Source: Lophium mytilinum (Eukaryota). From it: a DNA stretch of 64,000 nt. Below the pieces are notes generated by a model that was not told the DNA's origin, made no database searches, and worked only from the letters and a program-made list of their open reading frames with translations. The DNA is taken from assembly GCA_010093605.1 (NCBI GenBank), contig MU004191.1, positions 1,782,816 through 1,846,815 of the forward strand. Direction: 5' to 3'. Below are positions 1-25,410 of the stretch, one piece after another (position 1 is the first letter of the stretch; the number at the start of each line of letters is the position of its first letter). The translations under genes were made by a program, and so were the position numbers.

Positions 1-169
1 TAAATACTAAATTACTAAGCTTATAAGCCTAGTAATTATCTATCTATACTATATATATAGCTTAGCTCTATATAAAACTTATAATTAAAAATAATGCGGT
101 TATATTATTTATAAGGAGTTTATTAGAGTATACTAGAGGTAATCTATATCTTATCTATAATAGTAAGCT

Positions 170-1330
170 ATAAGAGGGCGTCTAGGGTAATTTTATAAAC
201 TTATATTATAGGCGCTTACATTAGGGGTAAACTAGAGTTATTAATGCTATAGAAATTTAATATAAGAATATATTAAGAGATAGAAGTTAATATACTATAC
301 TAAGCATTTACTAAAGTTTAACATAAATATTTAGGTACGCCGCATTTACCTAGCGCAAGCAGGAGTAAATACGCGTTTTCTCTTTTAAAATAGATACTAT
401 AGGGCCTGCATTAGGCTTAATATTCTCTACCCCCGAGCAAGAATAATTACCCACTACTAAGAAGTAGGTAGAGGATCTTAATAGGGGCGAACTGCCTAAC
501 CTCTAGAGTACTATATTCTTTAACTAGTTTTAGACGCTACTCTTAGTACTTTTAATAATTCTATACCTAGGTAAACCCGTTAATCTATAGCCTATAATAT
601 TAGGCTTTTAGTTACTAACTAACCCCTAATTTAACTTAATTATACTAAGCTAATACGCTAGAACGTATATACTTAAATTAGGGTGCTAAGAGTAGCGTCT
701 AAATTATATTAAAGAATACGTATTTTATATAAAAACTCCATTATATAATAAGATTTAATAGATTTTATAACTAGTACTATATTACGTAATATAATCTTTA
801 TATAAAATATAGTAGTATAACCTTAGTATAATAAATAGATTATTTTAGAAATAAATTTATAGTATAGAAGATTTATTAAGATTTAATCTAACTAAGCCTC
901 TAAAAAAGCTTTAAAGAGACTCTAAGTAGGTAATTTATAAGCTAATTAGGGGTAAATACCCCCTCCTATTTAAGGATGCCATTTAAAATCCGCCTAAATA
1001 TAGGGGTTCTAGAGTTAAAAGAAGAAGTTTTCTATATATTTAATATAAAAAATCTAGCTACTTTCTAATAGTTATAGTATATAAATAATTCCTTATTTCT
1101 TATAATATTATCTATCGGCCTCTAGAAATTATCTACTAATAAGAATTAGTAGAGTATATTATAAGTAAATCTAGTTATACTTATATAAATCTAGACTAGA
1201 GAATTAGCCCCTTAAATCTATACTAATTCTTAGTAGTATATAGTTCTTGCCCGGTAGATAATATTATAAAAAAATTCTAATTAAGATTTTATTTATTATA
1301 ACGCAAATTTATTATAAAGCGGTTTATTAT
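170..1330 (-). pseudogene. RIP-degraded gene of unknown function, interrupted by the MITE
   Basis: Minus-strand frame from 1322 reads PLYNKFAL**IKS*LEFFYNIIYRART...RTPIFRRILNGILK*EGVFTPN*LINYLLRVSLKLF. Stops fall where CAA/CAG/TGG are plausible. Ends approximate. Confidence 0.5.
511..720. mobile_element. MITE-like element (about 210 bp) with roughly 36-bp terminal inverted repeats, flanked by TA
   Basis: 514-549 tattctttaactagttttagacgctactcttagtac is the reverse complement of 683-718 gtgctaagagtagcgtctaaattatattaaagaata (core 20/21 match). TA at 509-510 and 721-722, which is weak evidence in such TA-rich DNA. Confidence 0.7.
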
Positions 1331-2769
1331 AGTAAGGTTATACTATACTTTTAAGGTTAAGTATAGCTAAATTAGATCTACACGCGGGAAGGTAGGTAGT
1401 AGCGGGTAGCAGAAGAGTAGAAGTATATATTTAACCTTCTATACTTCTCCGCCCGGCCTACTTCTACTCTTCTCTAGTCTTGCAAAGTTAGTTATTTTAA
1501 GAGGTTAAAAGCTCTAATATAAGAATACTATAATATAGAAGTAAGTAATAGAAAATATATAAAGTATAAAATCTACTCTATAGCCTACCTATAAATACTT
1601 TTAAGATTTCTTATAGCTAAGTTCTATACTTTAATCTTTAAGCTAAACTCTAACTACTAAGTAGAGTTAGTTCTAACCTTTAAGCTAACCTTTAGCCTTT
1701 ACTTAGTTTCTAATACTTCTAGCTAATATATTTCCCCTCTTAGTAATTAGAGCTTAGCTTAGGTTTCTAGATACGCTTCTTCTACCTAGCGGCCTTTATG
1801 CAAGTATATCCCTAGTATAAGAAAGGGTTAGAACTATTTATAATTTAAAGTTCTAGTTATTATAAATATACGCTAGGTAGACTATAGAAAGAGGCGGCTT
1901 CTAATATTTTTATTATAATAAGTAAAGTTTTAGTGCTCGCGCGGTCTATAAATTATAAGTATTAGTTACTAGAATATTTATTAATATTATAAGAGGCTTA
2001 CTATATCTAATATCTAGATGTTATTAACCTTCTAGTAGTTTCTTAAGAATATTCTTATCTTAAAGCAACTACTCTTTATCTATTATAACTCTTTCCATTC
2101 TAACTCTATTACTAGTTAGCCTAATAGTTACTTATCTCTAGCTAGGTCTACTAGGTATATATAACTGCGATTACTATTATACTTTATTTTACTATCTACC
2201 TTAAGGCAGCTATTATTACTATTATCTTAATAGAATGTTTCTTTACTTTTACTAGTATAGCTAGCCCTATAGAATTTAATTATTATTCTATATATTAAAT
2301 TACTTTATAATAATTTCTAGTTAAACTTTATAGAGCTTATTCTTTAGTTATTTTCTATATACTTAATAAGCTTATAAAGTTTCTATAGAGTATTAGTAAT
2401 ATACTAGTTATACCTCTATTTTTCTAGTATTAGTAATAGTTTAGCATTCTATATATAATTATCTATCTCTAATAAAGTCTAAATATAGTCTATATCTATT
2501 TCTTTATATAGGGTAAATAGTTTAATTACTCTATAGTAGACTTCTAGGGCAGTAAAAATAACTTATAGGGCTAGTAATTACCTAAAAATAAGATTAGTAA
2601 CTTAATAGGTAATAGAATTACTCTCTATAAATATTATATATAACTTTCTACTACTACTATACCCGCCTGTAACTATATAGGCGTCTTATCTAGTTAGGTA
2701 GAATAGATTTATAATAGGAAAGAGTTAACCCTATATATTTAGATTAGTATCTATTTAGAGAAAGATATA

Positions 2770-4100
2770 ATTAAAATAGTATAAGTATATCTTACTCTTA
2801 TATATAGTATCTATAGGGCTAGATCTTATAGAGATAATCTCTATATTACGCCTCTCTAGATCTACTATAGCTAGACTTATACTTACGCTTTATAACGCCC
2901 TAGATCTAGATATTCTAACCTATACCTATATTTTAAAATTACCTATCTTCTAAAATAACATATTATATATTACTCTATTAATAATATATTAGAGTATTTC
3001 TAGGGCGTTCTCTTTACTCTTTAGTTATTCCTTTTACTTATTATAGATAGTGTAGATAGATTAGAATTTCTATATCTTATTCTAGGCACGCTCCCGTTCT
3101 TATTTTATATCTTTAAGTTCTTCTTTTAAGTTATTAAACTTTATTCTTATAGTAGTAAGCTCTTCTTTTACGCTAGCAAGCTACTATAGAAGCCTCTCGC
3201 GTTCTTATTTAATATTTATTTTTATTTCCTTAAGTTCTACTTTTAAATTGCTTAACTTTACGCTTATACTAGCGAGTTCTACTTTTATAATAGTAAGCTG
3301 CTATAGAAGCCCCTTATATTCTTATTTAATATTTATTTTTATTTCTTTAAGTTCTACTTTTAAATTATTTAACTTTACTCTTATACTAGTAAGTTCTTCT
3401 TCTAGGCTAGTAACTTTCTACTAAAGCTAGTTGCGTTCTTACTTAAGTTCTAATATTATATTATTTAACTACTTCTATATATTACTATATTACTTAAGCT
3501 CTCTAGTTCTATAGCCTAGTAGTAGAAGGCTATTACGCTCTTTCTAGAGCTCTACTATTAGTAGTTCTACGTTAACTATCGCGTTTAGAAGGGGGCAGTA
3601 TTTACTAATATTAAGCTTGCCACCGCTATAAGGGGGGAGAATAGTAGAAAGGGAGGTAGAAGGCTAGGAGGTTAAGGTATAGAGGGGATATATTAGAATA
3701 TAAGAGATATTAGGGTATTATATTACTACTTATAGAATTATCTCTATTAGTAGATTATTTCTAAGCTTTATAGTAAGCTATCTTATTTTCTAGTGCACTC
3801 TATTAGGCTCTTCTTTAAGTTTAAGTTTATCTACTAGTATTATAGTATGCTAGCAAAGGTTATTAATAATAACCTAGCCTACTTTAAGAAAGGTAATAAG
3901 CTACTCTCTATAACCCTCTCTAAACTAATTATATACTTTAAGAAGATTATTAATATACTATTTTAATTTTATATCTCTATTCTCTTCTATATATTATATA
4001 TACTTCTAGGTATTAGGCTACTCTAAAAAGAAATTAAGCTTCTTTTATAGAGATTAGAGCTCTAATATAGCGTTATTATAATTATCTTATAGAGTTATAA
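2770..4100 (-). pseudogene. RIP-degraded coiled-coil protein gene with a 39-aa tandem repeat
   Basis: Frame reads ...ELK*ERN*L**KVTSLEEELTSIRVKLNNLKVELKEIKINIK*EYKGLL*QLTIIKVELASISVKLSNLKVELKEIKINIK*ERERLL**LASVKEELTT..., a heptad-like L/E/K pattern with a 117-bp DNA period. Ends approximate. Confidence 0.7.
3184..3417. repeat. 117-bp tandem repeat (2 copies plus a partial third to the left)
   Basis: ctatagaagcc...ttcttatttaatatttatttttatttc..taagttctacttttaaatt starts at both 3184 and 3301. Confidence 0.9.
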
Positions 4101-6089
4101 GGTCGACTAGTAGAAGATATAAGGGGCAGTAGTTAAGTATATAGCATACTTCTAATCTTATAGAAGCGCTAATTACTACTTAGTAAACTAAGAATAGAGA
4201 ATTAGATATATAGTACTTGCCTAGATATCTACTAGAGAAAGACTAAGTTAGCACGGCTTTTTTATTTTACTAAAGTTTTAAGTCTATCTATATATAATAA
4301 CCTAAGTAGTATATAAAGTAGAATTAAATATTATCTATCTTAATAATTAGTATAGTGTAGTAACTCTAAGTATAAAGTTTAGCCCCGCAGTTACTAAGAA
4401 GACTCTAGCTTTCTATATTTTCTAGTACTTAAGGCTTTCTACGCTATAGTATCTAAGAATCTATAGAAGTTAATAGATCTTAATAAGTATACTAGAGAGT
4501 AGAAGTAAAGTAAAAAGCTATAATATAATAGTTTTATACTTAAAAGATAAAGGTATAGTTATATATAGAGAGCGTGCGCTAGTTAGTTACTAGTCTAATA
4601 ATTAGACACGCGCGGATTATTTATAAATATCTTTAGCAAAGGGAGAAAATACTTATAGTTCTAGCTAGTTAATAATATACAAGTAATAGCTAAATACTTG
4701 CAGCTTATGCGGGGTATATAGTATAGAGCTAATAAAGCTAAATAAAAAGAGTAGATTAGATAGAGTAGAAGTAAGCTTACTTTAGCTTTATAAATGCGGT
4801 AGAGGGTTTTTAATACTAGTAGAAATACGTAGTATAGAAAAGATAGAGTCTAAGATATATTTTAGTAGTAAAACGTGTGGCGTTATATATATAAATAGTA
4901 ATAACTAAGATAAACTAAGTAGTAGATATATTCTAGATATAAGATAACTAAAACTATATATAGCTAAATAAGCCCTATTTAAAACTAAGTAATTCTAAGA
5001 GGTATTAATATACTTTAGTTGCGGGAAGCCGCTTTATATTATAGCGTTTTATAAAAAGGTTCTTGTAAGTTAAAGTAAAACTAATTTAAGGTTTCTAGCT
5101 CTAAGCACCTTATTTAAAAGATCTAAGGCTAAGTAATAAGCCTATCTCTTAGGCACCGCTAATTAGATATATCTTCCGATATTTTAATTAGATTAGTAAT
5201 TAAATCGCTATCCTATTATAGAACTAGAATAAGTAAGTTAAAGGTAAGTTTTTAATAGAGCTAACTCTTTTATTCTAGATTTATCTACCTATATCTCCGC
5301 TATAGAGCTAACCCTTTAGATTATCCTGCAACCCGCTTCTAAAGAACTTATAAGGTAGCTTATAAGGTAAATTTATTTAGCTAGATATATATCTAGCTAT
5401 TTATATAACTAGTATATAACTTTATTTACGGGCTAATATATTACTTTAAGAATTATATGCAACTAAAGAAAATTAAAGTAATATATAATAAAATAGGCAG
5501 GCTATATAGTATTAAGACTTTAAAATTTATATAATTTTATAGGGTAAATACTAAGCTTTATATAAATTCTAAAGTCTTATAACTATATATAAGATCTAGA
5601 TTAATATAGCTATATAATGCTTTAAGTGCCGGAATCGCGCTAGCTTAAAAGTATATATTTTGCTAAGTCTTTAAAATAATATTTAATAGAATCTACTATA
5701 GCCTCTCTAATAGAATAAAAAAGTAAGTATCTTTATAAGTATTATATAAATTAGAAGATGCCTCTTTCTAAGAAGCTACGTAATTTAATACGCTCTCTAG
5801 CATGCTAATAATATATTTCCAACTAGATATCTCTTTCTAGAAACTCTTACTACTTAATTCTAATTTTCTTACTATTTAATTTTTAGGTTCTAGTATATTT
5901 TTAATTTTATAGTATACCTTAAGAGTTTTATAGAGACTTCTAGACTAGCCTCTACCTAAGGCGAGAAATAAGTTCTATTCTAAATTAAGTTATTTAAGCT
6001 ATATAGCCTCTAAATCTTTCTCCTATTATAGTAGAGCCTTCTACTCTTTTATTAATTTTCTAAGGATTAAGATTAATTATTTAGTACTA

Positions 6090-6740
6090 TTCGCCGCTAT
6101 ATTATAATATGCTAGCACACCTCTATATTAGTAGAGTGCGCCGTTAAGAATACTAATAAGGTCTAGTAGTGCTATATATTTTAGAATAGGTCTCTCTAAT
6201 TTAAATAGTTTATTTTCTAGAAAAGTAAAGAAGCTTTATACCTATTAAAGACTATTATTAGTAGATAGGGTTAATATTTAAAGTAACTTATAAATTTCCC
6301 TAATTAGTAAGGCTTCTATACTAAAAAAAGTAAGGTTTATAATTATATTATTCTATAGGTATATAGCTTTTATAATATTAGACCGTAGTAAGAATAGATA
6401 TAATAAAACTAGAGGTAGGTCTTATAGAGGACCTATAAAGATATTTAGAAGTACTAGAAGTACTAGTTCTAGTAGTACTAATATAGGGTAGTAAGAATAG
6501 TTCTATCTCTATTAGGTGCTAGCTAAGAAGTTACTAGCCCTACCTAATATATTATAGGCTGTATCTAGTATATTACTTCTAAGAACCGCTATAGAAATAT
6601 TAGATATATCTTTTAATTTACGTAGTATAGTTAGAAATAATAATACATTAGTATTCTATTTAGGGGAAAAGGTTGCCTGTTTAAACTTAAGTTCTATTAG
6701 TCCGCAAGCACTAGACTAAATACGCTTTAGAGTTATATTA
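6090..6740 (-). pseudogene. RIP-degraded gene fragment of unknown function
   Basis: Long frame with few stops: ITLKRI*SSACGLIELKFKQATFSPK*...LERPILKYIALLDLISILNGALY*YRGVLAYYNIAAN. Includes a CTA/GTA run that is probably a RIP-mutated CCA (Pro) tract. Confidence 0.45.
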
Positions 6741-9700
6741 CTAATTTATTGCGGGTAAAGAACTAGCTAGTAGAATAGCATAGTAGGCTAAGAAGAGATA
6801 TAGAAATAGGCCTTATAAGACTACTTAAGATAAAATTATATTCTATAAAAATAAAGTCTAGAGAATAATATAATTTATACTATAAAGGGAAATAGGGTCT
6901 AATATAGCTCCTCTAGAAATTATTCTTTAAGTAGCCTAGGTTAGTAAGCTAAAATAATATGCGCTTATTATAATATCTCTAATAAGGGTAAAGCTATTTA
7001 ATAATAGCGCTTATATTATAGAAGGTATACTATCTAGATTTATAAATAATTTTTAGCTAGAATAGCATATAAGATCTTAGCCGGCCTAAACCTAGGTACT
7101 AGGGGCGCTATTAAGATAGCTTTAGGGCTTAAGAGCTAGTATAGATTAAGTTAATAAGAGGTTTATAAGGGCTAGCTATAAGAAGAAACTATTATTATTT
7201 AGGGGCCGTGCGGATCTTAAAGCACTAGAATAATATTTTATTAGAAATAGCGGTCTATAATTACGGTTAATTATTTCTAGAGACTATCTTTTACTAGCTA
7301 AGCTTACTAAATATATAAATATAATAATTTAATTTTAGTATATATAAGACTATAGCTAGTTAAAGAGAATCCGGCGTCTAGCTAGTCTTACTCTATTTTA
7401 TTACAGCTCTACTATTTTTAATACTATCTTTTATGCGTTGCTTTTTATTTCCTAATATATCTAGTTTTCCTTAACTATCTTTACCTTTATTCTTATTATT
7501 TATACTACCCCTAGAGTTCTTACAGTTATACTTTAGCCTACTAGGCTAACTAGTATAGGTAGAATATATACTATACTGTACTCCCGGTATATAACTACTA
7601 GAAAGAGAAAGTAATTAGAGGTAGTTTTAAAAGATATAGCTAAGACTAACTATACTTACTAGGTATTTAGGCACGTAGATTATAAATTTAATATATTACT
7701 CGCTACTAAAATAGATATAAGCTATAGTTAGAAGCGTCTTAGTTTAGAAAAGAGTTAATAGGTTATTAGAGTTATTATCGCCTGTCTAGCTATAGATAAA
7801 AGTGCTATACCTAGATATATTAGTTAAGTATAGCTATCTTATAACTATATTAAAGTATAGAATATAATAATAGTCTTTAGCTTCTATATCCTCTAGCAGG
7901 TAGAAGTTATTTAACTAAAATATACTAAATATAAGGCTAAAACGGCTAAATATAAGATAGAAATCTAGTATAATAGAACTGTAATACTTCTAGAACCCCG
8001 GTATAGTACTAAGAATTACCGGGCAGTAAGAATTAGTATTTTAGAATAGCCTTATATTTCTCTTAAGCTATATTACGGCCGCGGTAGCGGGGGAGAGTGC
8101 TATAATCTACCTAAAAATAAGTAACTAAGATAATAAAGGTTCTATAAGGACAGTTTAAGTACGCCGTAAATATATATAAAGAATATAATATATATTAGTA
8201 TATATAGATAGTATAGGGTTATTATTTATATATATTTTATAAAGCTTCTTATAAATATATATTATATCTTAGATACTATATATATAAAATCTCTCCCCTT
8301 TTATTAAAGTAACTAAAGACTCGCGTCTATAAGGTATATTAGAGATGTAACATCTTAAATATTAATATATTTAAGTTATAGCCCGCTATAAAAGAGTTAA
8401 GGCCTTTTCTTTAAGTTAGTAGTTAATAAAAGAAGTAAATAACGCGGTGCTTTATCTATTTTATAGTGGAAGCTTCTCCCCCTATTATAGAAAGACTTAA
8501 TAGTTTATTTAATTCTAAATAGTAGAAAGCCTAGTTAGAAATTATTAGGATCTATAAGTACTTACATAGTAAGTTTAATATTTCTTAGATTACTAGTTAT
8601 CTGCGCGTAGAGTATAACTTTCTCTAATCTATAACTATAACTATACTATATTATATATACTAAACTTCTTATTATTATCCTTATAATCTTACTTAGTAGA
8701 GCTTTCCCTAATGTAATAGATAAGTTTAATAAGGCTTAGCACCCTATTATAATCTATAGATTTCTTAATACTATATTAACTAATATAAAATATATTATCT
8801 ATACCTTTAATACAGCTCTCGCTAATACCTCTAGCACTTCTATCTTGCTAGTAGTTACCCTAATAGATTAGTAAGGCCGTCTACCGGCTTTACTTTAGTA
8901 ATTAGGTTAAATAATCGGCCTTAGGATAAATACTTAGAAAAGGGTGTCTCTACTTATCTATTCTATATTAGATAGACTATATTAGGCTATAGTTATTACT
9001 CTTATACTAATTAGCTAGTTCCTAGGCCTATTACTAGCTATAAGTATTAGATATATTATTTTAGTCCTAGTTCTATACCTCGTGCTTAAATTTATTATTT
9101 AGCTTATCTACTTTCTATTTTGCCTTATTAGTAGCATCTACTAAGCCCTCGGCTAAGAGACGCCTTATTAGACTTTAACTTCGCATTAATAGGTATTATT
9201 ACCTAGATAATATTTAGTTTCCCGCTATATCTAGCTTATAAGAGAATATATAAGTCTAGAGTTATATAGCTAGTAGTATAAGAATAAAGTAAAAGATTAG
9301 GTAGAGAATAGGTAGTTTCTAAGTAGGCTTAAGCCTAACACCTAATCTAGAGTATATAGTATTTCTAGAGAGTAGAGATAGAAGCTAGTAAGTATATAGG
9401 GCATGTAGTTATATAAAATAATATATATTTTTACTCTAGAATTTCTCTACTAAGTATTCCTTTACCTTCTACTCTAATATAACGCCCTCTACTAAGATTT
9501 CTAGTATACTATATTATACTAATACTAAGATAGTTATTCTATAACTCTTTAAGATATATATAATACTAACCCTATAAAATTTTATTACCTATTAGAGGTA
9601 GCATTACTAATAGCTTTATAGCAGTAGTTATAAAAGACCTATTAATTCTTATTAGAACTTTTATAAATATAGTTATCGCCTAGCTTTTAGGCCTAAGAGT

Positions 9701-11267: not shown

Positions 11268-11327
11268 CTAATTATTAAGTTAAATACGCACCTAATTATT
11301 AAGTTAAATATATACCTAAGTATTAAG
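11268..11327. repeat. 24-bp tandem repeat, about 2.5 copies
   Basis: ctaattattaagttaaatacgcac / ctaattattaagttaaatatatac / ctaagtattaag. Confidence 0.85.
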
Positions 11328-11609
11328 AGATAGGTATTTATTTAGTATAAGCTTAATATCTATAAGAGATATATTTAGAATCCGCTAGACTAAGTTATAA
11401 TTAGGTAAAATAGTGCAACTTCTATAATAGAGAAAGAAGATAGACTATATAAGATTAAGTACTACTTTATAGTATATAACTAGTTTATTTAACTATAGCT
11501 AATATCTATATAATATACTTATAGCTAATATTACTATATACTATAAAGCTTTAATTTCCTCTTTTATTAATTTATATTATCTACCGCGGGTGGTGCTAAC
11601 GCAATCTAG

Positions 11610-13650: not shown

Positions 13651-16600
13651 TTTATAGTAAAGATAACCTTAGGGATGCTAGAAATTTATATATAGTAGCG
13701 TAAAAAAAATATACGCGTATAAGATTTATATACTACTTTAGTAATTATAGTCTTTCTACTATTATAAAGGCATTAAAAGAGTTATAGGGCTATAGCTTAT
13801 AGCTATAAGCTTATGCAGGCGGCTCCCTAGATATATAGCCTTATTCTTAACCTATTATTTATATATATAGTATAAGTAGTTCTTTTATTCTTTACTATTC
13901 TATTCTATCTTATAGAAACTCCCTCTAGTTACTTATATTAGCCTTATAATTCCCTTCTATAAAATTCTAACTAGCCCCTATATAAAGGATAGAAGCGTTA
14001 TATATAGAGAACTTTTTACTACTATTAGCTCTATACTCTTAGCTACGCCGGAATTATAAGCTATAAAAGAAGGAGAAGAATAAACTACTCTTATTCCTTA
14101 TTACTAACTAGATAGTAAACTATTACTTTATATAAACTTCTAGTACCGTTCTATATTATATCTTTTAGCGGCTGCAAAGTTTACTTTATTATGCCTTTAC
14201 TTCTATTTAATATAAAATTAGTAGACTAGTAGAAAAAGGGTATATATTATATTTAGTAGTAGCTTTTATATCTTCTAATATATATTAAACCGCTCTAAGT
14301 ATTCTTTCTATACTTTTTAGATAAAGAACTAGAATTTTTAAATATACTATAAAGTAGTAAGCTATATAGAATAATATAGATATATAATTTAAGCGGCCTA
14401 GTAAGAGTATTACTATTCTATATCCCCTTAAAGCTACTATTTCTTTTAGACTACTACTCTTATTACTCTAATTATTTAACTTTCTAAAGCTATATAAGTA
14501 TTACTAATAGTAGACCGCCTAGTTTATAATCTTAGAAAAGAAGGTAGAGATATATATCTAAACTAAGCTTACTTCTAGTATTAAACTTACTATTAAGTAG
14601 GCATGCCTAAAGGCCTAGAAGAAAATATAAAGTTAGGTTTTAAAGACGCACTAACTTAAATAGATAAACCTTCTTAATTAATACTATATAATATATTTAA
14701 TTAATCTATAAGTAGATAGTATAACTAAAGGGCGTCTAAAGAGATATAGGGATTCTAAAAGTAGTAGAGAAGAAAAGCAGCGCATTTAGAAGGGCGCGAG
14801 GCTTAATAGTAATATAACCTTTAACTAGGACATTAAAGTTTCTACGCGTTGTATTATAATTCTAACCCGTAGAATTATAACTGCGTCTAGTTAGGTTGCG
14901 GGTTTAGGCTAACTAGTACCTATTAGAGCTACGGCATCTACTAAATATCTAAGCTATAAGCTACCGGCCCTAACTATAGTATAGATAATTAGCTAATAAA
15001 ATATATAAATACGTGTTATAGGTATAAGAGAAGCTTTTACTAACCTTAGAATAGTTTATACTTTAGAAGGATTTAAAGATATAATTATAGAATAAGTTAA
15101 ATTATTATAGAAGGTTATAGACTTACTACCTAGAAGTAAGGGACCTAATATATTGCCCCACTATTACCTTAATAGGCCGGGAAGGGGAGGGAGAAAAAGT
15201 AGAAAGAAGAGGAGGTAGCTTACGGGTTATATATGCGGCAGGTGCCTAATAGTTTATAATAGCTACAGCTTATAGTATTTTAAGAGGAGAATAAGTAGTA
15301 GAGTTTAGAAAATAATTATATAGTTTTTAGGCTCTCTCTTATAATAAATAGTAGATATAATAGTAGATTATATACTATACTAAGGCTAGAGAATAATATA
15401 TTAGACTAGAAAATAATTATACCTTATATTTTCTTACTGCTTTTTATAGCTCTAGCTAGCTATACTAGCTAGCGGTGGATATTACTTATACTAGAAGTAG
15501 CTAAGATCTTAGTTAGCTCTTCCCTAGTACTAAATTCTTATCTTCTTTCTTACTACTACTTCTTTCTCTATTTTCTAAAAGATATATTTTTAAGAATATA
15601 TACTAGGGTTATTTTAGATTAATTCTAATATAAGGGGCGCCGCTAGAAAGATTATCTAATTATGTAAGCATTATGGCGTTATAGAAAAGAATAATTTAGC
15701 TCTTAGAAGGTAAGTTTAAAATTAAATAGGCTAAATAACTAGGTATATATTAGATTATAATAGTATTAATAGTCTTAGTACTAGAGGTAATAGAGGCTAG
15801 CTACTAGACTAAATACTAGTCTAGCATAACTAGACTTATACGCGCGCGAACTCCTCTATTAATTCTTAGCTAGTTAATATTTTATAACGTTAGTAATAAT
15901 AATTTTATAGAGCCTACCTATCTTTTCTATTTTACTTACCTTAATTACTAATAGCGCTTATATAATACTTATATAATAGTGTTACTAATATGCCGCTATA
16001 ATCTAGCTAGTAAGCTATAGTATTATTCTTCTTATTATCTTATAGCTATTATCCTTAATATCTATTCTATTAGTAGGCTTATTAACCTCTTTAAGAGCTT
16101 TCTTCTACTAATACCCTCTCTATATATAAACGCCGCCTAGCCCGCCCTCTAACTAATAGGTACTAATGTAAATATAACTATGCCTTATTTTAACTAGACG
16201 CAATAGAAAAGCTTTACTTAGAATCTATAGAGAATTTAATAACGCTAGTAATAGACCCTGCATAATTTCTCTAGCACTACTAGAGCTACTTAATATATAT
16301 AGTAGCGTTAAGCGTAAAAAAATAGTAATAGAGATATTTATAGTATATTTATTATCTTTAGTCCGCCTTTCTTATATACTAATACCTCTAATAGAAAATA
16401 AAATACGTAATATAGAGGTTATATAAAGGCTTAGTAAACCTAAGTAATATACGCCCTTACCTAGTAGCTATAGAGCCGCAACGCAATTAAATATTACTAG
16501 CAATTTACGCTATATAGTAAGCCGCCTTATCTAAATTTTATATAAAACTATACTCTTATATTATCTAATATAAAGCTTATATAAAACTATAGTTATATAT

Positions 16601-17459
16601 TTAAAGTAAAATACTACGCGAATATATATAGTACTATAGAAAAATTCTATTAGAGGGTTAAATATATAGCTTCTTAGAAATACCTCTATAGTATTAGAAA
16701 ATATATATTAGATAGAGTTTTAATTACTAACCTAGCTACGCCTATCTATCTATACCTATAGAGCTGTAGAATGTCTTTCTATAGTAGTAAGTTTTTAAAG
16801 TTTAAAACTAACTGCCTTTTAAACTTTAAGGTAAACCCTTAGGCCTATTCTAAGAAATTAATTATTCTATAGATACTATAGTATAGTTATACTTTTATTA
16901 GGCGTATTCTAGAGCTATAGAGGGTATAACTTTAAGATTCTATATATAAACTATAAACTTATAATTTTCTAATACTCTTATTCTGCACCTCTTAGCTTTA
17001 AATCCTCTTTCTTTAGTAAATAATAATAAAACTAATTATATAGTTTAAGAAACTTATTAGTTAATAATTATAAATTAAACTCCCTATAAATTAGGTTTAA
17101 AAGCTAATTACTGCGTGGCGCATAAAGTTTTTAATACTAGACGGAAACTAGAAAGCTTAATCTAAGAGCCCCTTATCTTTTAAACTATCTTTCTAAAGTA
17201 AGGGTGGAAGCCGTAATATAGTATTATCTCCCGCGTTTAACCGCCGGCTTTACTATTATAAGAGGGAGAGGATTCTAAAGAATAGTAACTATAAGTAAAC
17301 CTTTACTACTATCTAACTATATATATTTAGTACCACGCTTAAATCTTCTTAAAATACCCTTTAGATATATTAAATATAAAAGACATTCCTACTATTACCT
17401 ATTATCTCCTTATATTCTTCTATTCTAGTTAAACTTCGGCCGAGCGGCGAGCTACTAGC

Positions 17460-17904
17460 AAACCTATTTAGCTTACTTAGAATTAAGGTAACCTTTATTA
17501 TAGAGAAGGACGCTAGTATAAAAGATATCTTACTCTATAAATATATCTATCTCGTCTTTATTAAAGGCTAATTTAAAGTTATAATCTAGAATAGAGAGCG
17601 CTGCATATTAAATATTTAATATCTTATTTAAAACCTGCTATATATACTAACTAGAATTCTATATTTTAGAGGTTTTTTAAAGGTCTAGAATAACTAGCAT
17701 TGCAAGATTATAGTTATTCTAGTCTTAAAGAAGGCTAATAAAATCTTCTAAGGCTTAAAAGGAGGGTTTATTATTATTATAATAGAGATATACCTAGAAG
17801 CGCTTATATAGAGTCTATAGTTGCGCACCTTAGTTAGGGTAGTCTTACTTTTTAATCTTAGTTATCTTATAGAAGAGGTATATATTAGTAGTGTTAGCGG
17901 CTAT
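17460..17904 (-). pseudogene. RIP-degraded gene fragment of unknown function
   Basis: Frame from ATA (possibly former ATG) reads AANTTNIYLFYKITKIKK*DYPN*GAQL*TLYKRF...ALEDFISLL*D...FKLAFNKDEIDIFIE*DIFYTSVLLYNKGYL. 3' end not fixed. Confidence 0.45.
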
Positions 17905-18037
17905 TATAAGTTAGTATAGTAGATATTAGATATGCTAGAAATAGTAGTTTAATATAGAAGTAGAGAATAGATATAAGTATTAGTAGAATATAAGATAAGA
18001 TTAGTTAAAAAGAATTAAAAGTAGAGATTTAACTATA

Positions 18038-18817
18038 CTATATAGCTTTCCGTCGCGGAACACTAAAGACCTAATTTCTACGCATAATAAATTTAAAGTT
18101 ATAGCTATTTTTATATATTATAGCCCTTACCTATATAGCCGCGCAGTTATAGCCTTAAGTAAAAATAATAAAAGGTCTAATGTAGAGGGCGAGTTTCTAA
18201 GAAACCTACTAGCTACTTATAATTTTTAAAAGTAGTTATATAAAGACTTTAACTTGCAGTAAATAAAGAACCGGGATACTAGCTCTAATTATAAACTTCT
18301 TAGTAATAAAGTCGCCGCCCTAGCACTAAATAATATTACTATATTATAAGAATAGGGCTTCTTCTTCTATATCTATACTAAGACTTACTAGAGAAAGATC
18401 TAAGAATCTTAAAAGGTACTATATAAGGTAATACTTATAAGTATAGCTAGCGGGTTCTCTATTAGTAAGGCCTTAATACTATTATTAAGGAAATTTCCTA
18501 ATTCTAAGTAAGATATAGAGATTCCTCTAAATTTTACTAAAATAAAATCTAACTCCTAGTAGTAAAAATAGATAAAGATTACCTAACCTTCTCTATATAA
18601 AGTATATATAGAGTACTAATAAGTAAGTAGTATATACTATAAAGTCTCCCCGCTTATAATATATAAGATGTAATAGCCTAATAATACTATCTTCCGGAAA
18701 TATTTCTTTTTACAGCATCTAGTATATATATAGTAAGGTGCAACTAGTTTTTATAATAAAAACTAAGCCGCTTATTATTCTAGCTACGCTAAAAGTATTA
18801 TACTATATAGAAGCTAT
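18038..18817 (-). pseudogene. RIP-degraded gene of about 260 codons, unknown function
   Basis: A 780-nt single frame from ATA (possibly former ATG) ASI*YNTFSVARIISGLVF...KEIFPEDSIIRLLHL...EEEALFL*...GGDFITKKFIIRASIPVLYLLQ...VFSVPRRKAI* with sparse stops at Q/W-like positions. Confidence 0.55.
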
Positions 18818-19436
18818 AGTACTATAGAAAATAATTAGTAGTAATAAAAAGAAGTAAAAGAGAGAACTTAGTTAACTTAAGACTACTAAGAGCCTTTTTA
18901 TATAGAATATAAATTACCCTTAACGCCTAGTAAGATACTTATAAAATAATATAGGCGCTCTCTTTAATATTATTATATAAACCTATTCTTAGAGACCCGC
19001 TAGTTACTCTATAAATAAGCTTTAATTTTACTTACCTTAGTATATATCCCCTAAATTAGGTATTTAATTAGAAGTTCTACTAAATACGAGTAGTACCTTT
19101 AAGATTACTAATACTAAGATAAAGCATAGTGCACGATTATAAGGCTATAGTAGATATAAGAGTTAAGAAACTTATATTCTAGCTATTTATAGTAATAATA
19201 GAAATAAGACTAGTAATAATATTAATATTAGGTAAGCAAGTTTTATATTATAATATAAATAGAGCACTAAACTAATATAGCTTCTTAGTTACTAGTAATA
19301 ATAAAAGTGTAATAGGCGAAGTTAATAAGAATACTAGTTAAGCGGAGGTAATTATTAGGTAGACTCTTACGTGCTAGTATCTAAAAGAAGCTAATATTTA
19401 TAAGCCGACTAGGTTTACTACTAAGTTAGAAACTGC

Positions 19437-19685
19437 GTGCCATCCTTAGGTAGTAATTTAGCCTAGCGTAATAGCTAGATCTATCTAATAAATCTAGTTA
19501 AGTTCTAAAAGATATCTTTAGGTAGTATTTTAGCTTTAGAGGGGAATTTTAGAAGTAATTTTATATTATATTTTAATAAAATACTACCTAGGTAGTAATT
19601 TAGCTCTCTATAATAGCTAATTCTACTTTATAATTAGTACTATCTTAAATTAATAAAATACTACCTAGGTAGCAATTTAGCTTAT
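19437..19685. repeat. Array of four roughly 70-77-bp-spaced repeats with a palindromic core
   Basis: aggtag(t/c)a(a/t)tttagc at 19448, 19520, 19590 and 19667. Perfect 16-bp palindrome tactacctaggtagta at 19582-19597 and a near-perfect one at 19659-19674. Confidence 0.8.
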
Positions 19686-20295
19686 ATAGTACCCGAATAT
19701 TATTTTAGTATTAATTTTTTCTGTTAGTATAAAACTATTTCTTATAAATTAGTAGAAAGAAAGAGACGCTAATTATTTTATATTATATAGTAGAGGAAAG
19801 CCTTCCGCTCTTTACTTAGATAAGAAACTAAGAATTATGCTATATAGTTAGACATCTTAGAGTAAGTAGTAGTACTAATTATATTCGCGTTTAAATTTAT
19901 AGCCGTTAAGATTCTAAATAATAGAGAGCTATGCGACTATTTATAGAAGAAATTCCTCTCTAACTTTTATAGAGAGTAGTAATTATAGCTTCTAATAAAA
20001 ATATTCTAGTTATATTTAATCTAATAGGGACTAGTATAGGAAAGATAGTACCTATATACATTCTATAAACTGCGCTAGTAATTAAATCAGCTATAAAGGA
20101 GAGATAATTATAAGATAACGCGTATCTAAAGCTTAGTTATAGTTATATATTAGGTAGGTAATTATAGCCGTTATATACTATTAATTACTGCTATATTTAT
20201 TAATCCCTTTATTATAAATCTATAGTTATAACTTTAACGGGGACTAAGTTCTAGAGTATATAACCACGTTGGGAGAAGAATAAATCTCTAGTATC

Positions 20296-20344
20296 TACCC
20301 TTTAACTCTAGTTAAATCTATTCTTTAACTCTAGTTAAAGGGTA
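20296..20344. repeat. Double palindrome: two tandem tttaact-ct-agttaaa units within a 12-bp outer inverted repeat
   Basis: taccctttaact (20296-20307) is the exact reverse complement of agttaaagggta (20333-20344). tttaactctagttaaa occurs at 20301 and 20324. Confidence 0.85.
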
Positions 20345-20939
20345 AAATATATTATTTAGCCTATTTATAAAGAAGTATAATAAGATATTAAGTTAAGATA
20401 GGCCTTTACGTTGCTAGGAAATAATTAAGTTATTTTAATAACTTTATTATTCCTAATAAGGGAAAATTGCCTTAGTTAGATAAATAGCCTTAAAAGTAAT
20501 AGTTTTATTATGCAAAATACTAAGAAATTATATAATAAAGAACTTATCTTTATTATAATAAGATATAGCTAAAGTATAGTATAGAGGCTATACTATAAGT
20601 AATATAAAAGATTATAGTAGTTATATTACTACCTACTTATACTTAATATAAGTATAGATAATAAAATTAAAAGCTTAAAAGCTTGTAATAGTAATTAATT
20701 TAAAAGATATTTCTATATTTAAAGAACTACTTAATATTCTAGATTATATTAGAAGATATAAGGTTAGTTAGACTACTAAATCTATAAACTGCCTTAACAC
20801 CTCCATTAAAAATTTAGATAATTAAGACAGATTTCTAATAATATAATAATAGTAGTGCAAATAGAGACATTACGCGCTATAAGTAATATCTTTCTTCCTT
20901 ATAGCTAGAAACGTAAGCCTTAAGGCAATAGAGGTATAA

Positions 20940-22335
20940 TATTAAGAAAAAGAAAGTAAGAACGCCCCGGCTAGGACGCTTCTAGTTTAGAGGATAAAGA
21001 GTTTCATTCTAAGAGTAGTTATAATAAGAAGGACGTCTAGCTTCTATTTACTAGTCTAAAAATACTACTAAACCCCGCACTACTTATATAATTTCTATAA
21101 ACCTATAATAAGAGTCTAGCTAATAGAATTAAGTTCTATAAGTGGGCTTAGCTAGCTATATAACGCCTTATTAATAATACTTAGTATAGTACTATAGGTA
21201 ATATTATTATTTTAGTATACTTATTTATAAAGTATACTATTATAAACTATTTAAGTATATATATTTAATAGTATTTTATAATATTATTAATCTAGAATAT
21301 TATCTATTATATATACCTAAAAGTTAAAGGGCGTATAAGTAAGACTATAGAATCTTCTATTTAGTTATATATAGAAGTAAAATATAGTAATAAAGTTATT
21401 TAGAAGTTAGGGGAATTATAGAAGTAAATTAGTACTAATATTTAGAAATAGTTTCTTATAGGAAAATAACTAAATAACCTTATATACGAGTTTAGTAATA
21501 GTTATATCTTCTTTCTAGAAGAGTAGCTATTAAAGTATTAGTAAGATAGTAGACTTAATAGATATAAGTATATATTAACTTTATATAGGCTTTAAAACCG
21601 GTTTATATTTAAGAGTAGTCTATAAGATAAAGCTATATAGTATTTATATTATCTAGATCTTAAAGAGACGGCCGAGAAGTATAGAGTAATAAAACTTAAA
21701 AGGTAGATTTATCTTATTTTTATATATCCTTTATAAGAGGCTTAGGCAGGGTTAAATTTATCTAGAAGTTAAGGAAAGACCCCTTTAGAAGATAAGGTAG
21801 ATTTAGATTCTAGAAATATAATAGAGTAATACTATAGAAAGAAGAAGAGTAAAGTCCTTCTATTAATTAAATAAGAATTAAATCTAAAAGCGGCAATTAG
21901 ATAATATCTTTACTACTCTTACTAGTATAATAGACGAAACTATTTCTATAGTATTAATTTTAACTAGTCCCTAATCTAGCTAGAAGAGAATAAGAATATT
22001 TCTTCTAAGTCTATTTGCTCTATTAGTAAAGCTTTATAATTTAAAATAGCGGTAACTTGCAGCGCTTTCTATATAGTATACCCGTAACTAAGAGTATATT
22101 TAATAGACTAGGGAAACTATATTCTCTAGTAAAATAGGTAACTTTTAGGTCTAATAGCCCGCATACTAAGTAGGCTAAGCTAATTTTTAGGTGCGTAAAT
22201 AGTATAAAGAATATAATTATAGAAGATATATACTTATTAGTAATCTTCTATACTTATAACCTTCTATAGTAGTTATAGTTACTATAAGTTAAGAGAAGAG
22301 ATAGCATTATTAATTACTATATAAGGTAAACCCCT
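20940..22335 (+). pseudogene. RIP-degraded multi-exon gene of unknown function
   Basis: Frame LRKRK*ERPG*DASSLEDKEFHSKS...GK*LNNLIYEFSNSYIFFLEE. Donor gtaaga at about 21541. Intron at 22138-22190 (gtaact...gctaatttttag). Ends approximate. Confidence 0.55.
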
Positions 22336-22979
22336 ATCTTACTAATACTATAATATAGTAATTATAAGAGCTTAGATAATATAGAGTCTAAAGAGTAGTA
22401 GAAATAATAGTAATAAGAATAGACTGCAGGTAAGGGCGAGGGAAATAGTAGTAAGAATAAAAGCAGCAGCGTTATTAGTTTTAACGGCGGTAATAATATT
22501 AGTTAGTAGTAAGAACAGCTAGTATAGAGAAAATAGTATATAATATAGTAATAGAAAAGAGATTATAGGGCTACTAGGTTATAGTAGTAGTTGCGCCCGA
22601 GTAGATATTTCCTCTAAAAGGGCTAAGGTTAAAGAAAATAGGGGCTATATAGTTAATAACTAGAGAAGCTAATTTATTATTCTTATCTTTAGTATTAAGT
22701 AATACTAGTTGCTAGTATAATATATTTATATTACTAGGCGTCTAAATAAATTTAGGTTTAGATAATAATAGAGTAAAGAACGCAGGATACTAGAGCTAGA
22801 TAATAGCTATTATTAATATACTTATATTATACGCATATTAGAAGGTGCACCCCGGGGTAACTAGGTATATAAAAATAATATAAAGCTATTTAGAGCTAGA
22901 AGATAGCTAGTTATACTAACCTTAACTAATATAATTCTATATTAGTTCTAGTACTAATATTATACACGCTTTTCTTCTA

Positions 22980-23880
22980 CTAGGTTATATTCTTTATTAG
23001 CGTAAACCTATTTATATCTCTTTAATAGTTCCGGACGTTCTATATATATAGTTTTAGATACTTTTAATATTAAGCCCTTTTTACTAGATATTCTTCTATA
23101 ATAATATTATCTCTATATTACTTTTAGCTAGATAGTAATAGGGAGCTAAGCTTAGTTATAAGATTATTACGCAAGAGCTTTATAGCTAGTTTTAACTCTA
23201 TATTTATACCCTTCTATAAAATCTCTTAAAGAAGAATACCTAGCAACCCGTTAGTTAGAATATTTTTAAACCTATAATATATACCTACTTAAAAAGTTAT
23301 ATAGCGCATCTTTAAGTCTTCTCTTATTATTATAAAGATTATTTAATAGACGGGGTAGAATATAGTCTATTAGCGCTTATCTATAGAGGATTAAATCTAA
23401 GCCTAGAAGACTAGTGTTTCTAAATAGTCTAGATATTTTAGTCTATTTTTCTAGTAGAAAGTACTACTTAGTTTCTAGTCTTATATTAGTATACTATTAC
23501 TGTTTTAAATTAAAGATATACCTAGGGTATCCTTCTACTTTTAAAGCGCCTATACCTTATAGACTTTAAGTAAGGCCTTAAGTAACCTCTTTAATAGGGG
23601 GTATAAATAGGCTATAAAGCTACTCTAGTATAAATTAATATTATTACTAGATATATAGGCTCTATTAACTAATTCTCTATTAGTATTATTTTAGTTAGTA
23701 GCATCTACTTTATCTTTATCTACTTTATTATAATGTTGCTTCTTCTCCTAATTAAGTTTGCGAATTTCTATTTTAATTATTTTAGTAACCTTAGAATTAT
23801 TTCTAAGGGGAATATTATCTAAATATATATTAGTGCCCCTCTTTATCTATATTTTATTTACTTTCTAAATAATAGAAACC
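22980..23880 (-). pseudogene. RIP-degraded gene fragment of unknown function
   Basis: Protein-like frames DNIPLRNNSKVTKIIKIEIRKLN*EKKQHY...YLYPLLKRLLKALLKV and ALIDYILPRLLNNLYNNKRRLKDALYNFLSRY. Confidence 0.4.
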
Positions 23881-25410
23881 CTATATTACTAAATAAATAT
23901 ATATAGGTCCTCTATAGTTTAGATTTTAGTACTATACTTAGAAAGTTTTAATTTTTAAATATTACTTCCGCGAGCCTAAAAACTATTATATACTATATCT
24001 CGCCGGAAGATATATATTTAATAGTCCTAATTAAGAATAAAAAAGTACTAAGGCTTAGATATAAAACTTCTATAGTATATTTTAAATTGCCCGTTATATT
24101 TATATTAGATATAAAATAGAAAATTAGTTTTTAAGTTATAGAGAAGGAAATTAGTTACTAAGGGCGTAGTTAGGTTTATCTCTAAATAGTAATAAGGAGA
24201 TAAACGGACTATATTATAAAGTTAGAGAATATATTTAAGTAATTCTTTATTTCTATCTTTATATTTTAGAATATTTTAGCCTTAACATTACTTATATAGA
24301 AGGGGTATCTAGTTAAAGAGTAATACTATACTAGCTAGAATTCTAGGGATTTCTTTCTAATACTAGCTTAAGTTTATTTTTACTACCTTTTAGATACTCT
24401 TAAGAGTTTTATAGAGTTAATAAAAGAAAACTATAGTTAGACTAATATTATAATAATCTTAGATAGAAAATGCTTAGCTCTATATATAGTATCTAACCTC
24501 TCTTATCTAGCTTCTTATAGTTAAATAAGATACTAAGTAGCGCTATAGAGTTCGGCTGTTTAGTATAATTTTAACTATATTAGAGTAACGTAGGGCGATA
24601 AAAATAAGGAAATCTATAGTAAGGGCCGAGGTTCTCTTATTCTTTAGAAACTATTTCTATCTCTTAATATTCTAGAATAGGTTATTATAGCTATTATAGC
24701 TATTCTAGTAGTACCTAAAGTAATCTAGCTAGATTAAGTTATTCTAGCTAAGTATTAGAAACTAACTTATTCTAGAAATTCTTAGAAATAAAAGAGCTCT
24801 ATCTATACTTATAGCTTTCTACCCTAGATTAAAAGTATTAGTAGAGAATAGTAAACTATAATTAATTCTTTAAGAACTAGTTACCTCTTACTACTAGAAG
24901 TAGGTCTTTATCTTATCTAATGCCCTTTTCTAACTATTACTAAATAGTATCTTTAGCTATTTAACCTAGTAATATATATAGGTATAGATCTAGCGTAATA
25001 TAAAGAGCTATTCTAATATTTTAGAAAGTATTAGAATTAGTAGCGTAGCTAAAGTAAGGAGGCCTTTTAGAATTATAAATCTATAGGGCTTTATATATTA
25101 GTAAATAAAAGGGTTAGAATAATAATAAGTTCTTATAACTTTATTAAGCTATAAGACTTAATAACTACTTAATAAAACTTCTAGAAGCTCTTAGCTAACT
25201 ATTTACTTAAGAGGGATAAAAAGTCGGCCCCCTTATAGTAAGATAGCTTGGCTAAATAGTCTCTACTAAGATAATCCTTCTAGTAAAGGATTTACTTACT
25301 AGGGTTCTAGAAATATATAGAAAAGTACGCCTATATACGCTTTCCTTTTAGGTATTTTATAATGTATAGGGCACTATTACGTAATATTATTCTTAGTGAA
25401 TGCTAATTAT

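What the first reader, a model, noticed from the sequence alone, without database searches (positions are those of the whole stretch)
1..25400. The RIP block looks like a graveyard of cellular-type genes, possibly a dead giant mobile element
Seen: at least 8 separate stretches on both strands translate as long protein-like frames whose stops sit at plausible Q/W positions, several with intact splice signals, packed about every 1.5-3 kb. I recognised no RT, integrase or DDE motif. Established: RIP saturates sequence that was repeated in the genome. Inference: a multi-gene block of at least 25 kb was once multi-copy, as expected for a Starship-type element or a large segmental duplication. None of the fossil proteins matches a family I can name, so the element class or its cargo may be undescribed. 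No DUF3435 captain was recognised; it could lie left of the window. Caveat: in RIPped DNA all stops become TAA/TAG, so stop type alone is not evidence.
Basis: partly seen in the sequence, partly recalled or inferred. Interest (0 to 1): 0.75.

Follow-up and report, generated by a model that had tools for sequence, protein, structure and literature searches.

The report
Dead 36-kb inverted-repeat-bounded mobile element
The AT-rich block is the right-hand 25 kb of one roughly 36-kb piece of mutation-wrecked fungal DNA bounded by inverted repeats, most likely a dead giant cut-and-paste transposon, and the "fossil genes" seen in it cannot be told from chance.

Summary
Window 1-25425 is a RIP-saturated block: 27% GC, TpA/ApT 1.6-1.8, CpA and TpG at 0.13-0.15 of expectation.

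The "fossil frames" do not hold up.
- All six frames carry 11% stops, and stop-poor stretches match shuffles.
- Intron-like signals are fewer than in shuffles.
- Six-frame Pfam, three word-index searches and one full phmmer search gave no real protein hit.
- A purine/pyrimidine period-3 measure that RIP cannot alter shows only a weak excess: 10 segments of 10 bits or more against 1.7 expected, top 15.6 bits against 33-50 in neighbouring genes.

The new result comes from the source sample's contigs. Window 25192-25425 is an inverted copy of a stretch about 11 kb left of the window. The whole AT block is therefore one unit of about 36.4 kb with inverted ends of about 230 bp. RIP stops within 60 nt of that end.

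My best reading is a dead giant TIR-type element of undetermined family. A Starship or a block of duplicated host genes is not supported. The left 11 kb was out of reach. Earlier notes of this scan report similar giant RIP-killed elements elsewhere in this genome.

The parts
1..25425 (.). In-window part (right about 70%) of one RIP-saturated unit of about 36.4 kb. It starts about 10,981 nt left of window position 1.
Evidence: RIP indices and dinucleotides. The source sample's contig X2 record 7 runs unbroken from about window -15,033 to 21,649. The left arm of the inverted repeat lies at about window -10,981 to -10,757.
25192..25425 (.). Right arm of the terminal inverted repeat (about 230 nt). 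Its partner lies outside the window.
   Evidence: X2 record 7 positions 4052-4276 lie inverted on 25192-25425 with 17 other letters and 11 gap letters, including a 10-nt deletion at 25308. X1 records 1 and 6 show the same left arm in two pieces.
25396..25425 (.). Outermost 30 nt of the right arm, not RIP-mutated. TAGTG stands at 25394-25398.
   Evidence: CpA+TpG frequency is 0.103 here, against 0.0148 in 25192-25395 and 0.119 in the host flank. Sequence read.
3103..3446 (.). 117-nt tandem repeat, 2.9 copies. Read on the - strand it gives a 39-residue coiled-coil-like repeat. On the + strand it holds the block's only long open frame (3086-3421, 112 codons).
   Evidence: Pfam gave coiled-coil matches only (FKBP15, E 9e-5, 22.7 bits, below the cut-off of 27).
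2488..3900 (-). Weak coding-like segment (R/Y codon score 14.6 bits, 471 codons). It includes the tandem repeat, which inflates the score.
   Evidence: No homologue at E <= 0.01.
6147..8868 (+). Three weak coding-like segments: 6147-6701 (10.9 bits, codon position 1 at (pos-1)%3=2), then 7405-7824 (11.3 bits) and 8650-8868 (13.0 bits), both with codon position 1 at (pos-1)%3=0.
   Evidence: Stops are 8.7-9.0% in these frames. Pfam found nothing. phmmer of 6601-9600 against 1.84 billion representatives gave 0 hits at E <= 0.001.
11975..12817 (+). Weak coding-like segment (12.3 bits, 281 codons). It overlaps a stretch that has a diverged paralogue in the same genome.
   Evidence: contig X1 record 2 / X2 record 8 lies collinearly on 11520-11591 and 12278-12428 at about 80% likeness. 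No homologue found.
17678..18753 (.). Stretch with a second diverged paralogue in the same genome. The collinear pieces are 17678-17839 and 18696-18753; joints suggest the chain continues to about 21620.
   Evidence: tables 5 and 8 (X1 record 4 / X2 record 10). The pieces differ by 27 letters plus 4 gaps in 162 nt, and by 12 letters in 58 nt.
23616..24155 (+). Best coding-like segment (15.6 bits, 180 codons).
   Evidence: No Pfam hit and no homologue for 22800-24998.
25493..25981 (+). Context, not part of the element: an intact small host ORF that starts about 70 nt right of the element's end.

Best explanation
The AT-rich block is the right-hand 25.4 kb of a single insertion of about 36.4 kb, bounded by inverted repeats of about 230 bp. 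I read it as a giant cut-and-paste (TIR-type, class II-like) mobile element. The whole unit, ends included, was present in at least two copies and was then destroyed by CpA-specific RIP.

Shown:
- the RIP signature and its sharp border;
- the inverted-repeat pair that spans the whole AT block;
- flat RIP saturation up to within 60 nt of the repeat's outer end;
- short diverged paralogues of inner parts elsewhere in the same genome;
- no LTR pair, no inner repeat and no recognisable protein domain in the 25.4 kb.

Inferred:
- it moved as one unit by a transposase acting on the inverted ends;
- its ancestor was AT-richer (36-40% GC) than host DNA, as foreign or transposon DNA often is;
- its genes, if any, are of unrecognisable or unknown families, or lie in the unread left 11 kb;
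- its RIP partner has since been lost or has diverged.

The family is undetermined. A Plavaka-type or other CACTA-related element, as earlier notes report elsewhere in this genome, is possible but not shown.
For: -: contigs of the source sample place an inverted copy of 25192-25425 at about window -10,981 to -10,757, with 17 mismatches and 11 gap letters in 234. It is seen in both runs, which are one sample.
- the neighbouring finding starts near -11,004, which fits the AT block's left border.
- CpA+TpG is 0-1 per 50 nt up to about 25360, then rises to host level by 25396. The repeat arm is as saturated (0.0148) as the interior (0.0135).
- a transition-blind self-comparison finds no inner direct or inverted repeat above the controls (best 67.9 and 61.9 bits against controls of 60-71.9), apart from the 117-nt tandem. 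So there is no complete LTR element and no element with long TIRs nested within the window.
- the ancestral GC is estimated at 36-40%. Host DNA put through the same RIP would stop at 41.8%.
- no other contig is shown on the repeat arm, and inner paralogues reach only 58-162 nt at about 80%. That fits a low-copy element better than a pile of common repeat families.
- a weak excess of coding-like periodicity on both strands, as expected for a few decayed genes.
Against: - No transposase of any kind was found in 25.4 kb read in six frames.
- The left arm, both flanks together and hence the target-site duplication could not be read.
- The right end as aligned (...TTTTTACCT) does not read as any terminus quoted for Plavaka or the CACTA-related clade in PMC12730594.
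- Different inner parts match different contigs, which could mean a mosaic of unrelated repeats.
- Simulated CpA-only RIP leaves 75-88% amino-acid identity. If known genes had been here, Pfam should have seen them. Either the content is unknown or non-coding, or there is much further decay; the paralogous pieces show 37 transitions to 23 transversions.
- Contigs show presence, not absence, and table 8 lists only 16 of 160 pieces.
Confidence: 0.5

Rival explanations
1. A nest or mosaic: several unrelated old transposons or fragments piled up inside a small inverted-repeat element (MITE-like). The two halves of that small element now flank the pile, and all of it was later RIPped.
For:
- Different inner stretches (11.5-12.5 kb, 16.3 kb, 17.7-21.6 kb) match different contigs.
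- Coding-like patches lie on both strands.
- No single transposase was seen.
Against: - No LTR pair, no long TIR pair and no repeated family lies inside 25.4 kb, even transition-blind.
- No RT, integrase, gag or DDE domain was found.
- No other copy of the putative MITE arm is shown among the genome's contigs.
- RIP is flat at full saturation through the arm and stops at its end. That fits the arm being part of the large repeated unit better than leakage from inner repeats.
- Common repeat families saturated by RIP should still be 80% or more alike over long stretches, yet only pieces of 58-162 nt were laid.
Confidence: 0.25
2. A RIP-degraded Starship: a giant element moved by a DUF3435 tyrosine recombinase encoded at its 5' end, which would lie in the unread left 11 kb, carrying cargo genes.
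For: - The size (36 kb) and the sharp insertion border.
- Several weak coding-like patches on both strands.
- A captain could lie left of the window.
Against: - No DUF3435, DUF3723, NLR, patatin or ferric-reductase domain in six frames of 25.4 kb.
- Inverted ends of about 230 bp. Passages read in PMC11162782 say Starships lack conserved TIRs, have direct repeats and only occasionally TIRs, and are low in copy number.
- An ancestral GC of 36-40% does not look like host-type cargo.
Confidence: 0.06
3. A large segmental duplication of ordinary host genes, later RIPped, with one copy lost.
For: RIP needs duplication, and the block is uniformly saturated over 25 kb.
Against: - The inverted-repeat ends coincide with the RIP border.
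- No protein hits at all, although simulated RIP leaves 75-88% identity.
- Host DNA would end at 41.8% GC, not 26.9%.
- R/Y coding scores are a third of those of host genes.
- There is no transition-blind match to the 38.6 kb of host DNA in the window.
Confidence: 0.03

Closest known systems
RIP-affected AT-rich blocks ('AT isochores') built from dead transposons in Dothideomycetes such as Leptosphaeria maculans (recalled; no paper read here)
   Same: About 27% GC, a classical CpA-to-TpA signature, a knife-sharp border with gene-rich DNA, and no intact genes.
   Different: Such blocks are usually mosaics of recognisable, repeated LTR and DNA transposon families. Here nothing inside is repeated or recognisable, and one pair of inverted repeats spans the whole block.
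Giant Plavaka-type and other CACTA-related (CMCT clade) TIR transposons. Family features are from Kojima 2025, PMC12730594 (passages read). Giant RIP-killed copies in this same genome are reported by earlier notes e1-7639579, e1-7641132 and e1-7641153 (unchecked).
   Same: The size class (tens of kb), inverted ends of about 200 bp as the notes describe, death by RIP, and several possible genes.
   Different: No Plavaka or other transposase domain was found in the 25.4 kb. The right end as aligned does not read as CA..TG, CATCA..TGATG or TGT..ACA. The target duplication is unknown. There is no word-level likeness to any earlier window.
Starships (Gluck-Thaler and Vogan 2024, PMC11162782; passages read)
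   Same: A giant insertion with a sharp border, possibly carrying several genes.
   Different: No captain or auxiliary-gene domain in the part read. Long inverted ends instead of short direct repeats. The content is not host-like in composition.
Mutator-like elements and Pack-MULEs (recalled: TIRs of about 200 bp, 9-11-bp target duplication, capture of gene fragments)
   Same: Long terminal inverted repeats of about 200 bp.
   Different: This unit is ten times larger than usual MULEs. No MULE transposase domain was found. The target duplication could not be read.

Membership tests
RIP-affected repeat block | TpA/ApT well above 0.89, (CpA+TpG)/(ApC+GpT) well below 1.03, composite index above 0 (thresholds recalled) | tested here: met
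   1.59-1.79, 0.14-0.21 and CRI 1.43-1.63 in all 12 bins from 1 to 24000. Every host bin has a negative CRI.
TIR (class II) DNA transposon | Terminal inverted repeats at both ends | tested here: met
   25192-25425 pairs, inverted, with about window -10,981 to -10,757 (17 mismatches, 11 gap letters). The left arm is seen only through contigs, not read letter by letter.
TIR (class II) DNA transposon | Target-site duplication flanking both ends | not testable with these tools
   The left flank is outside the window, and no genome is held.
TIR (class II) DNA transposon | A DDE-type or other transposase gene inside | tested here: inconclusive
   None was found in six frames of 1-25502 at E <= 0.1. 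The left 11 kb was not read.
TIR (class II) DNA transposon | Other copies sharing the same ends | tested here: inconclusive
   One search shows only the partner arm on 25192-25425, and inner paralogous pieces of 58-162 nt at about 80%. Only 16 of 160 pieces are listed, and contigs cannot show absence.
Plavaka / CMCT clade | Plavaka (or EnSpm-like) transposase | tested here: inconclusive
   No Pfam hit in the window part. The left 11 kb was not read.
Plavaka / CMCT clade | Termini 5'-CA..TG-3' (PlavakaB CATCA..TGATG, PlavakaA TGT..ACA) with a 2-5-bp target duplication (PMC12730594) | tested here: not met
   The aligned right end reads ...GGACTTTTTACCT. TAGTG stands 27 nt further in, at 25394-25398, but the repeat runs past it. 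The end is uncertain by a few nt and the duplication is unknown.
Starship | DUF3435 tyrosine-recombinase captain at the 5' end | tested here: inconclusive
   No hit in 25.4 kb read in six frames. If the 5' end is the left end, it was not readable.
Starship | Cargo or auxiliary genes (DUF3723, NLR, patatin-like, ferric reductase) | tested here: not met
   No Pfam family at E <= 0.1 except one coiled-coil match.
Starship | Borders marked by short direct repeats, with an empty site in other genomes | not testable with these tools
   Only two runs, both of the source sample, hold the stretch. The left flank was not readable.
LTR retrotransposon (single or nested) | A pair of long terminal direct repeats | tested here: not met
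   in a transition-blind comparison, no direct repeat exceeds the controls except the 117-nt tandem.
LTR retrotransposon (single or nested) | gag, protease, reverse-transcriptase, RNase H or integrase domains | tested here: not met
   none at E <= 0.1 in six frames.
Segmental duplication of host genes | Content derived from host genes (protein homology, host-like composition) | tested here: not met
   No protein hits. Ancestral GC is 36-40% against the host's 53.6%. No transition-blind match to the host part of the window.

The most novel reading that the evidence does not exclude
The 36.4-kb unit is one giant cargo-bearing transposon of an undescribed family. It is moved through long (about 230-bp) inverted ends, not by a Starship captain, and its genes (about 6-10 weak coding patches on both strands, one of them a 39-residue coiled-coil repeat protein) belong to no family in Pfam or in 1.8 billion protein representatives. 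That would be a second, TIR-based route to Starship-sized elements in Pezizomycotina.
Probability: 0.12. Interest if true: 0.65.

Novelty: new member of a known kind. Interest (0 to 1): 0.3.

Why it matters
If the block is one transposon, this genome holds several Starship-sized elements that move, or moved, by inverted ends and not by a tyrosine recombinase. That would widen the known size range of fungal cut-and-paste transposons. It would also mean that some AT-rich "isochores" are single insertions and not slow accretions.

On method, the case shows two things. Open-looking frames and splice signals in RIP-saturated DNA are not evidence of genes. The purine/pyrimidine pattern, which RIP cannot alter, gives a usable test of former coding.

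As it stands, the content is unreadable and the class unproven, so the finding is a modest addition to a known picture.

Tried and rejected
- **Whole genome.** None is held for this window. No same-genome BLAST, no deRIP consensus and no starfish-type empty-site test could be run.
- **Other isolates.** Only two runs hold the stretch, and both are of the source sample.
- **Pfam.** Six-frame readthrough (TAA=Q, TAG=W) of 1-25502 in 12 pieces of 4300 residues gave 0 families at E <= 0.1, apart from one coiled-coil match. Ten chosen frames of 466-733 residues, searched at E <= 10, gave coiled-coil families for one frame and nothing for the other nine. I did not repeat the six-frame scan in short pieces, because the expected gain is only 2-3 bits.
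- **Homology searches.** Word-index searches with 11402-13000 (+), 22800-24998 (+) and 2488-3900 (-) gave nothing at E <= 0.01. Each scored about 8000 candidates, within limited length ranges. Full phmmer of 6601-9600 (+) against 1.84 billion representatives gave 0 hits.
- **ESM Atlas.** I dropped that step.
- **R/Y dicodon model.** In a leave-one-out test on host ORFs it had too little power, at 0.05-0.15 bits per codon. I replaced it with period-3 chi-square and R/Y-codon segment scores.
- **Inner repeats and host matches.** No inner LTR or TIR pairs. No match of the block to host DNA in the window.
- **RNA genes.** No tRNA and no Rfam family. Together with the absence of any Pfam hit, this argues against a mitochondrial-DNA insertion.
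- **Subterminal repeats.** Near the right end only short AT-rich matches turned up, such as TTCTAGAA-type words. I do not count them as real.
- **Earlier-notes look-ups.** By place (relatives) and by sequence, for 1-12000, 12000-23999 and the right arm, all returned nothing.
- **Depth.** The depth columns are sums over contigs and follow GC content, so they say nothing about copy number.
- **Absence of long paralogous contigs.** laid none. That is not proof that none exists.

Full report
**What is there**

Window 1 to about 25,400 is 24-28% GC in every 1-kb bin, against 44-66% to the right. It carries a textbook RIP signature.
- TpA/ApT is 1.59-1.79, (CpA+TpG)/(ApC+GpT) is 0.14-0.21 and the composite index is 1.43-1.63 in all twelve 2-kb bins from 1 to 24,000. 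All 19 bins from 26,001 on have a negative index.
- The damage is CpA-specific: CpA is at 0.15 and TpG at 0.13 of expectation, while CpG is at 0.83.
- The border is sharp. CpA+TpG counts are 0-1 per 50 nt up to about 25,360 and reach host level (6-8 per 50 nt) from 25,396.

**The fossil frames**

- All six frames have the same stop density, 11.0-11.6% (932-985 of 8466 codons). Only 3 TGA occur in all frames together.
- The fewest stops in any 200 codons is 6. The shuffle mean is 9.5 and the shuffle minimum is 6, over 30 dinucleotide shuffles.
- The only outlier is a 112-codon open frame, against a shuffle maximum of 99. It lies at 3086-3421 inside a 117-nt tandem repeat.
- Donor/branch/acceptor patterns of fungal introns occur 11 times, against 15.9 +/- 3.8 in shuffles. 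In 93 of 100 shuffles the count reaches the observed one. "Intact splice signals" are what this composition gives by chance.

**A RIP-proof test of former coding**

RIP makes only transitions, so the purine/pyrimidine (R/Y) string of the block is what it was before RIP.
- A period-3 chi-square on R/Y exceeds its 95% point in 19% of 166 windows of 600 nt (5% expected) and its 99.9% point in 1.8%. In the gene-rich part of the same window the figures are 42% and 21%.
- I scored R/Y codons with frequencies learnt from eight long host ORFs. The block has 10 maximal segments of 10 bits or more against 1.7 expected, 4 of 12 bits or more against 0.35, and 2 of 14 bits or more against 0.05 (40 third-order Markov controls).
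- The best segment is 15.6 bits, and the second best contains the tandem repeat. Host genes in the window score 33-50 bits.
- In the best frames of these patches stops are still 7.2-9.1% of codons. Ten host ORFs put through simulated 90% CpA RIP have 1.9-6.6%.

So there is a real but weak trace of former coding in some 4-10 patches on both strands: about 2.5-3.9 kb (-), 6.1-8.9 kb (+), 12.0-12.8 kb (+) and 23.6-24.2 kb (+), plus weaker ones. It is far from a dense row of gene fossils.

**Protein searches**

- Six-frame readthrough of 1-25,502 against Pfam gave no family at E <= 0.1 in 12 pieces of 4300 residues, except a coiled-coil match at the tandem repeat.
- Ten chosen frames at E <= 10 gave coiled-coil families for one frame (best FKBP15, E 9e-5, 22.7 bits, below the cut-off of 27) and nothing for the other nine.
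- Three word-index searches gave nothing at E <= 0.01: 11402-13000 (+), 22800-24998 (+) and 2488-3900 (-).
- A full phmmer run of 6601-9600 (+) against 1.84 billion representatives gave no hit at E <= 0.001.
- There is no tRNA and no Rfam family.

The simulation matters for reading these blanks. CpA-only RIP leaves 75-88% amino-acid identity, so known domains should have survived it. Either the content was never a known protein family, or it has decayed well beyond RIP.

**Composition argues against host genes**

The 38.6 kb of host DNA in the window falls only from 53.6% to 41.8% GC under 90% CpA/TpG conversion. Back-calculation from the block's dinucleotides gives an ancestral GC of 36-40%. 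This assumes CpA-only RIP. The undepleted CpG supports that assumption, but many RIP cycles could blur it. There is no transition-blind match between the block and the host part.

**The ends**

No genome is held. However, two runs of the source sample hold the stretch, and I laid their contigs on 5601-25600 at 80% likeness or more.
- One contig of 36,682 nt (X2 record 7) covers 5601-21649 without a difference. Its own positions 4052-4276 lie inverted on 25192-25425, with 17 other letters and 11 gap letters.
- Converted to window coordinates, the partner arm lies at about -10,981 to -10,757.
- The other run shows the same arm in two contigs (X1 records 1 and 6).
- At most about 7 of the 17 mismatches fall right of 25,313, so the repeat really reaches about 25,425.
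- The neighbouring finding of this scan spans 13,005 letters ending at window 2000, so it starts near -11,004. That fits the AT block's left border.

The whole AT block is therefore one unit of about 36.4 kb bounded by inverted repeats of about 230 bp.

The arm is as RIP-saturated as the interior (CpA+TpG 0.0148 against 0.0135). Only its outermost 30 nt are spared (0.103). There is no gradient of the kind expected if mutation had merely leaked outward from inner repeats. The arm appears to have belonged to the repeated unit.

**Inside**

A transition-blind self-comparison finds no direct or inverted repeat above the controls, apart from the 117-nt tandem. Within the window there is thus no complete LTR element, no element with long TIRs and no family present twice.

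From elsewhere in the genome, only short pieces were laid.
- 11520-11591 and 12278-12428 lie collinearly on one contig.
- 17678-17839 and 18696-18753 lie collinearly on another, with joints suggesting the chain continues to about 21.6 kb.
- 16271-16347 lies on a third.
- All are about 80% alike.
- Across the places of difference tallied for each run (table 1) there are 37 transitions and 23 transversions.

So the interior has old relatives, as RIP requires. No long partner 80% or more alike was laid, though contigs cannot prove absence and only 16 of 160 pieces were listed. Copies saturated by RIP should converge, not diverge. The partner that triggered RIP has therefore probably been lost or is poorly assembled.

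**Reading**

Best: a dead giant TIR-type mobile element that was duplicated as a whole and killed by RIP, family undetermined (0.5).

Main rival: a nest of unrelated old repeats inside a small TIR element (0.25).
- Earlier notes report such a nest elsewhere in this genome.
- Against it here: no inner termini or repeated families, no RT or other transposon domains, no other copies of the arm, and flat RIP to the very end.

A Starship (0.06) would need a captain in the unread left 11 kb. It fits poorly with long inverted ends; passages in PMC11162782 describe direct repeats and only occasionally TIRs. It also fits poorly with the blank for every auxiliary family.

A duplication of host genes (0.03) fails on composition, on homology and on the inverted ends.

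Plavaka or CACTA-type membership is suggested only by earlier notes on other loci of this genome.
- In my 25.4 kb no such transposase is seen.
- The aligned right end (...TTTTTACCT) does not match the termini quoted in PMC12730594.
- A TAGTG stands at 25394-25398, where RIP stops, but the repeat runs 27 nt past it. I record it as unexplained.

**Verdict**

This scan has noted similar giant RIP-killed elements elsewhere in the same genome, so this is a further member of a known kind. Its class stays open until the left end is read.

Noticed in passing
window 3086-3459: A 117-nt tandem repeat (2.9 copies, 79% matches). Read on the - strand it gives a 39-residue coiled-coil-like repeat with a few stops. 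On the + strand it holds the block's only long open frame (112 codons, Ser/Leu/Phe-rich). Which strand, if either, was coding is open.
   Followed up: partly
window 25394-25425: The outermost 30 nt of the right inverted repeat escaped RIP: 3 TpG are kept where 89% of sites are converted elsewhere. A CACTA-type TAGTG sits exactly where RIP stops, 27 nt inside the aligned end of the repeat.
   Followed up: partly
window 25493-25981 (+): An intact small ORF (162 codons from the ATG) with a Cys/His-rich start and a Lys-rich tail begins only about 70 nt from the element's end. The insertion therefore sits in its promoter or leader. Its family was not looked up.
   Followed up: no
window 21622-21649: Contigs of both runs break at the same place inside the block, with a 28-nt overlap. 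This suggests a short exact repeat shared with another locus.
   Followed up: no
window 44001-45000 and 32001-33000: Two 1-kb bins of the host part reach 66% and 61% GC, well above their neighbours. Long open frames overlap on both strands there.
   Followed up: no
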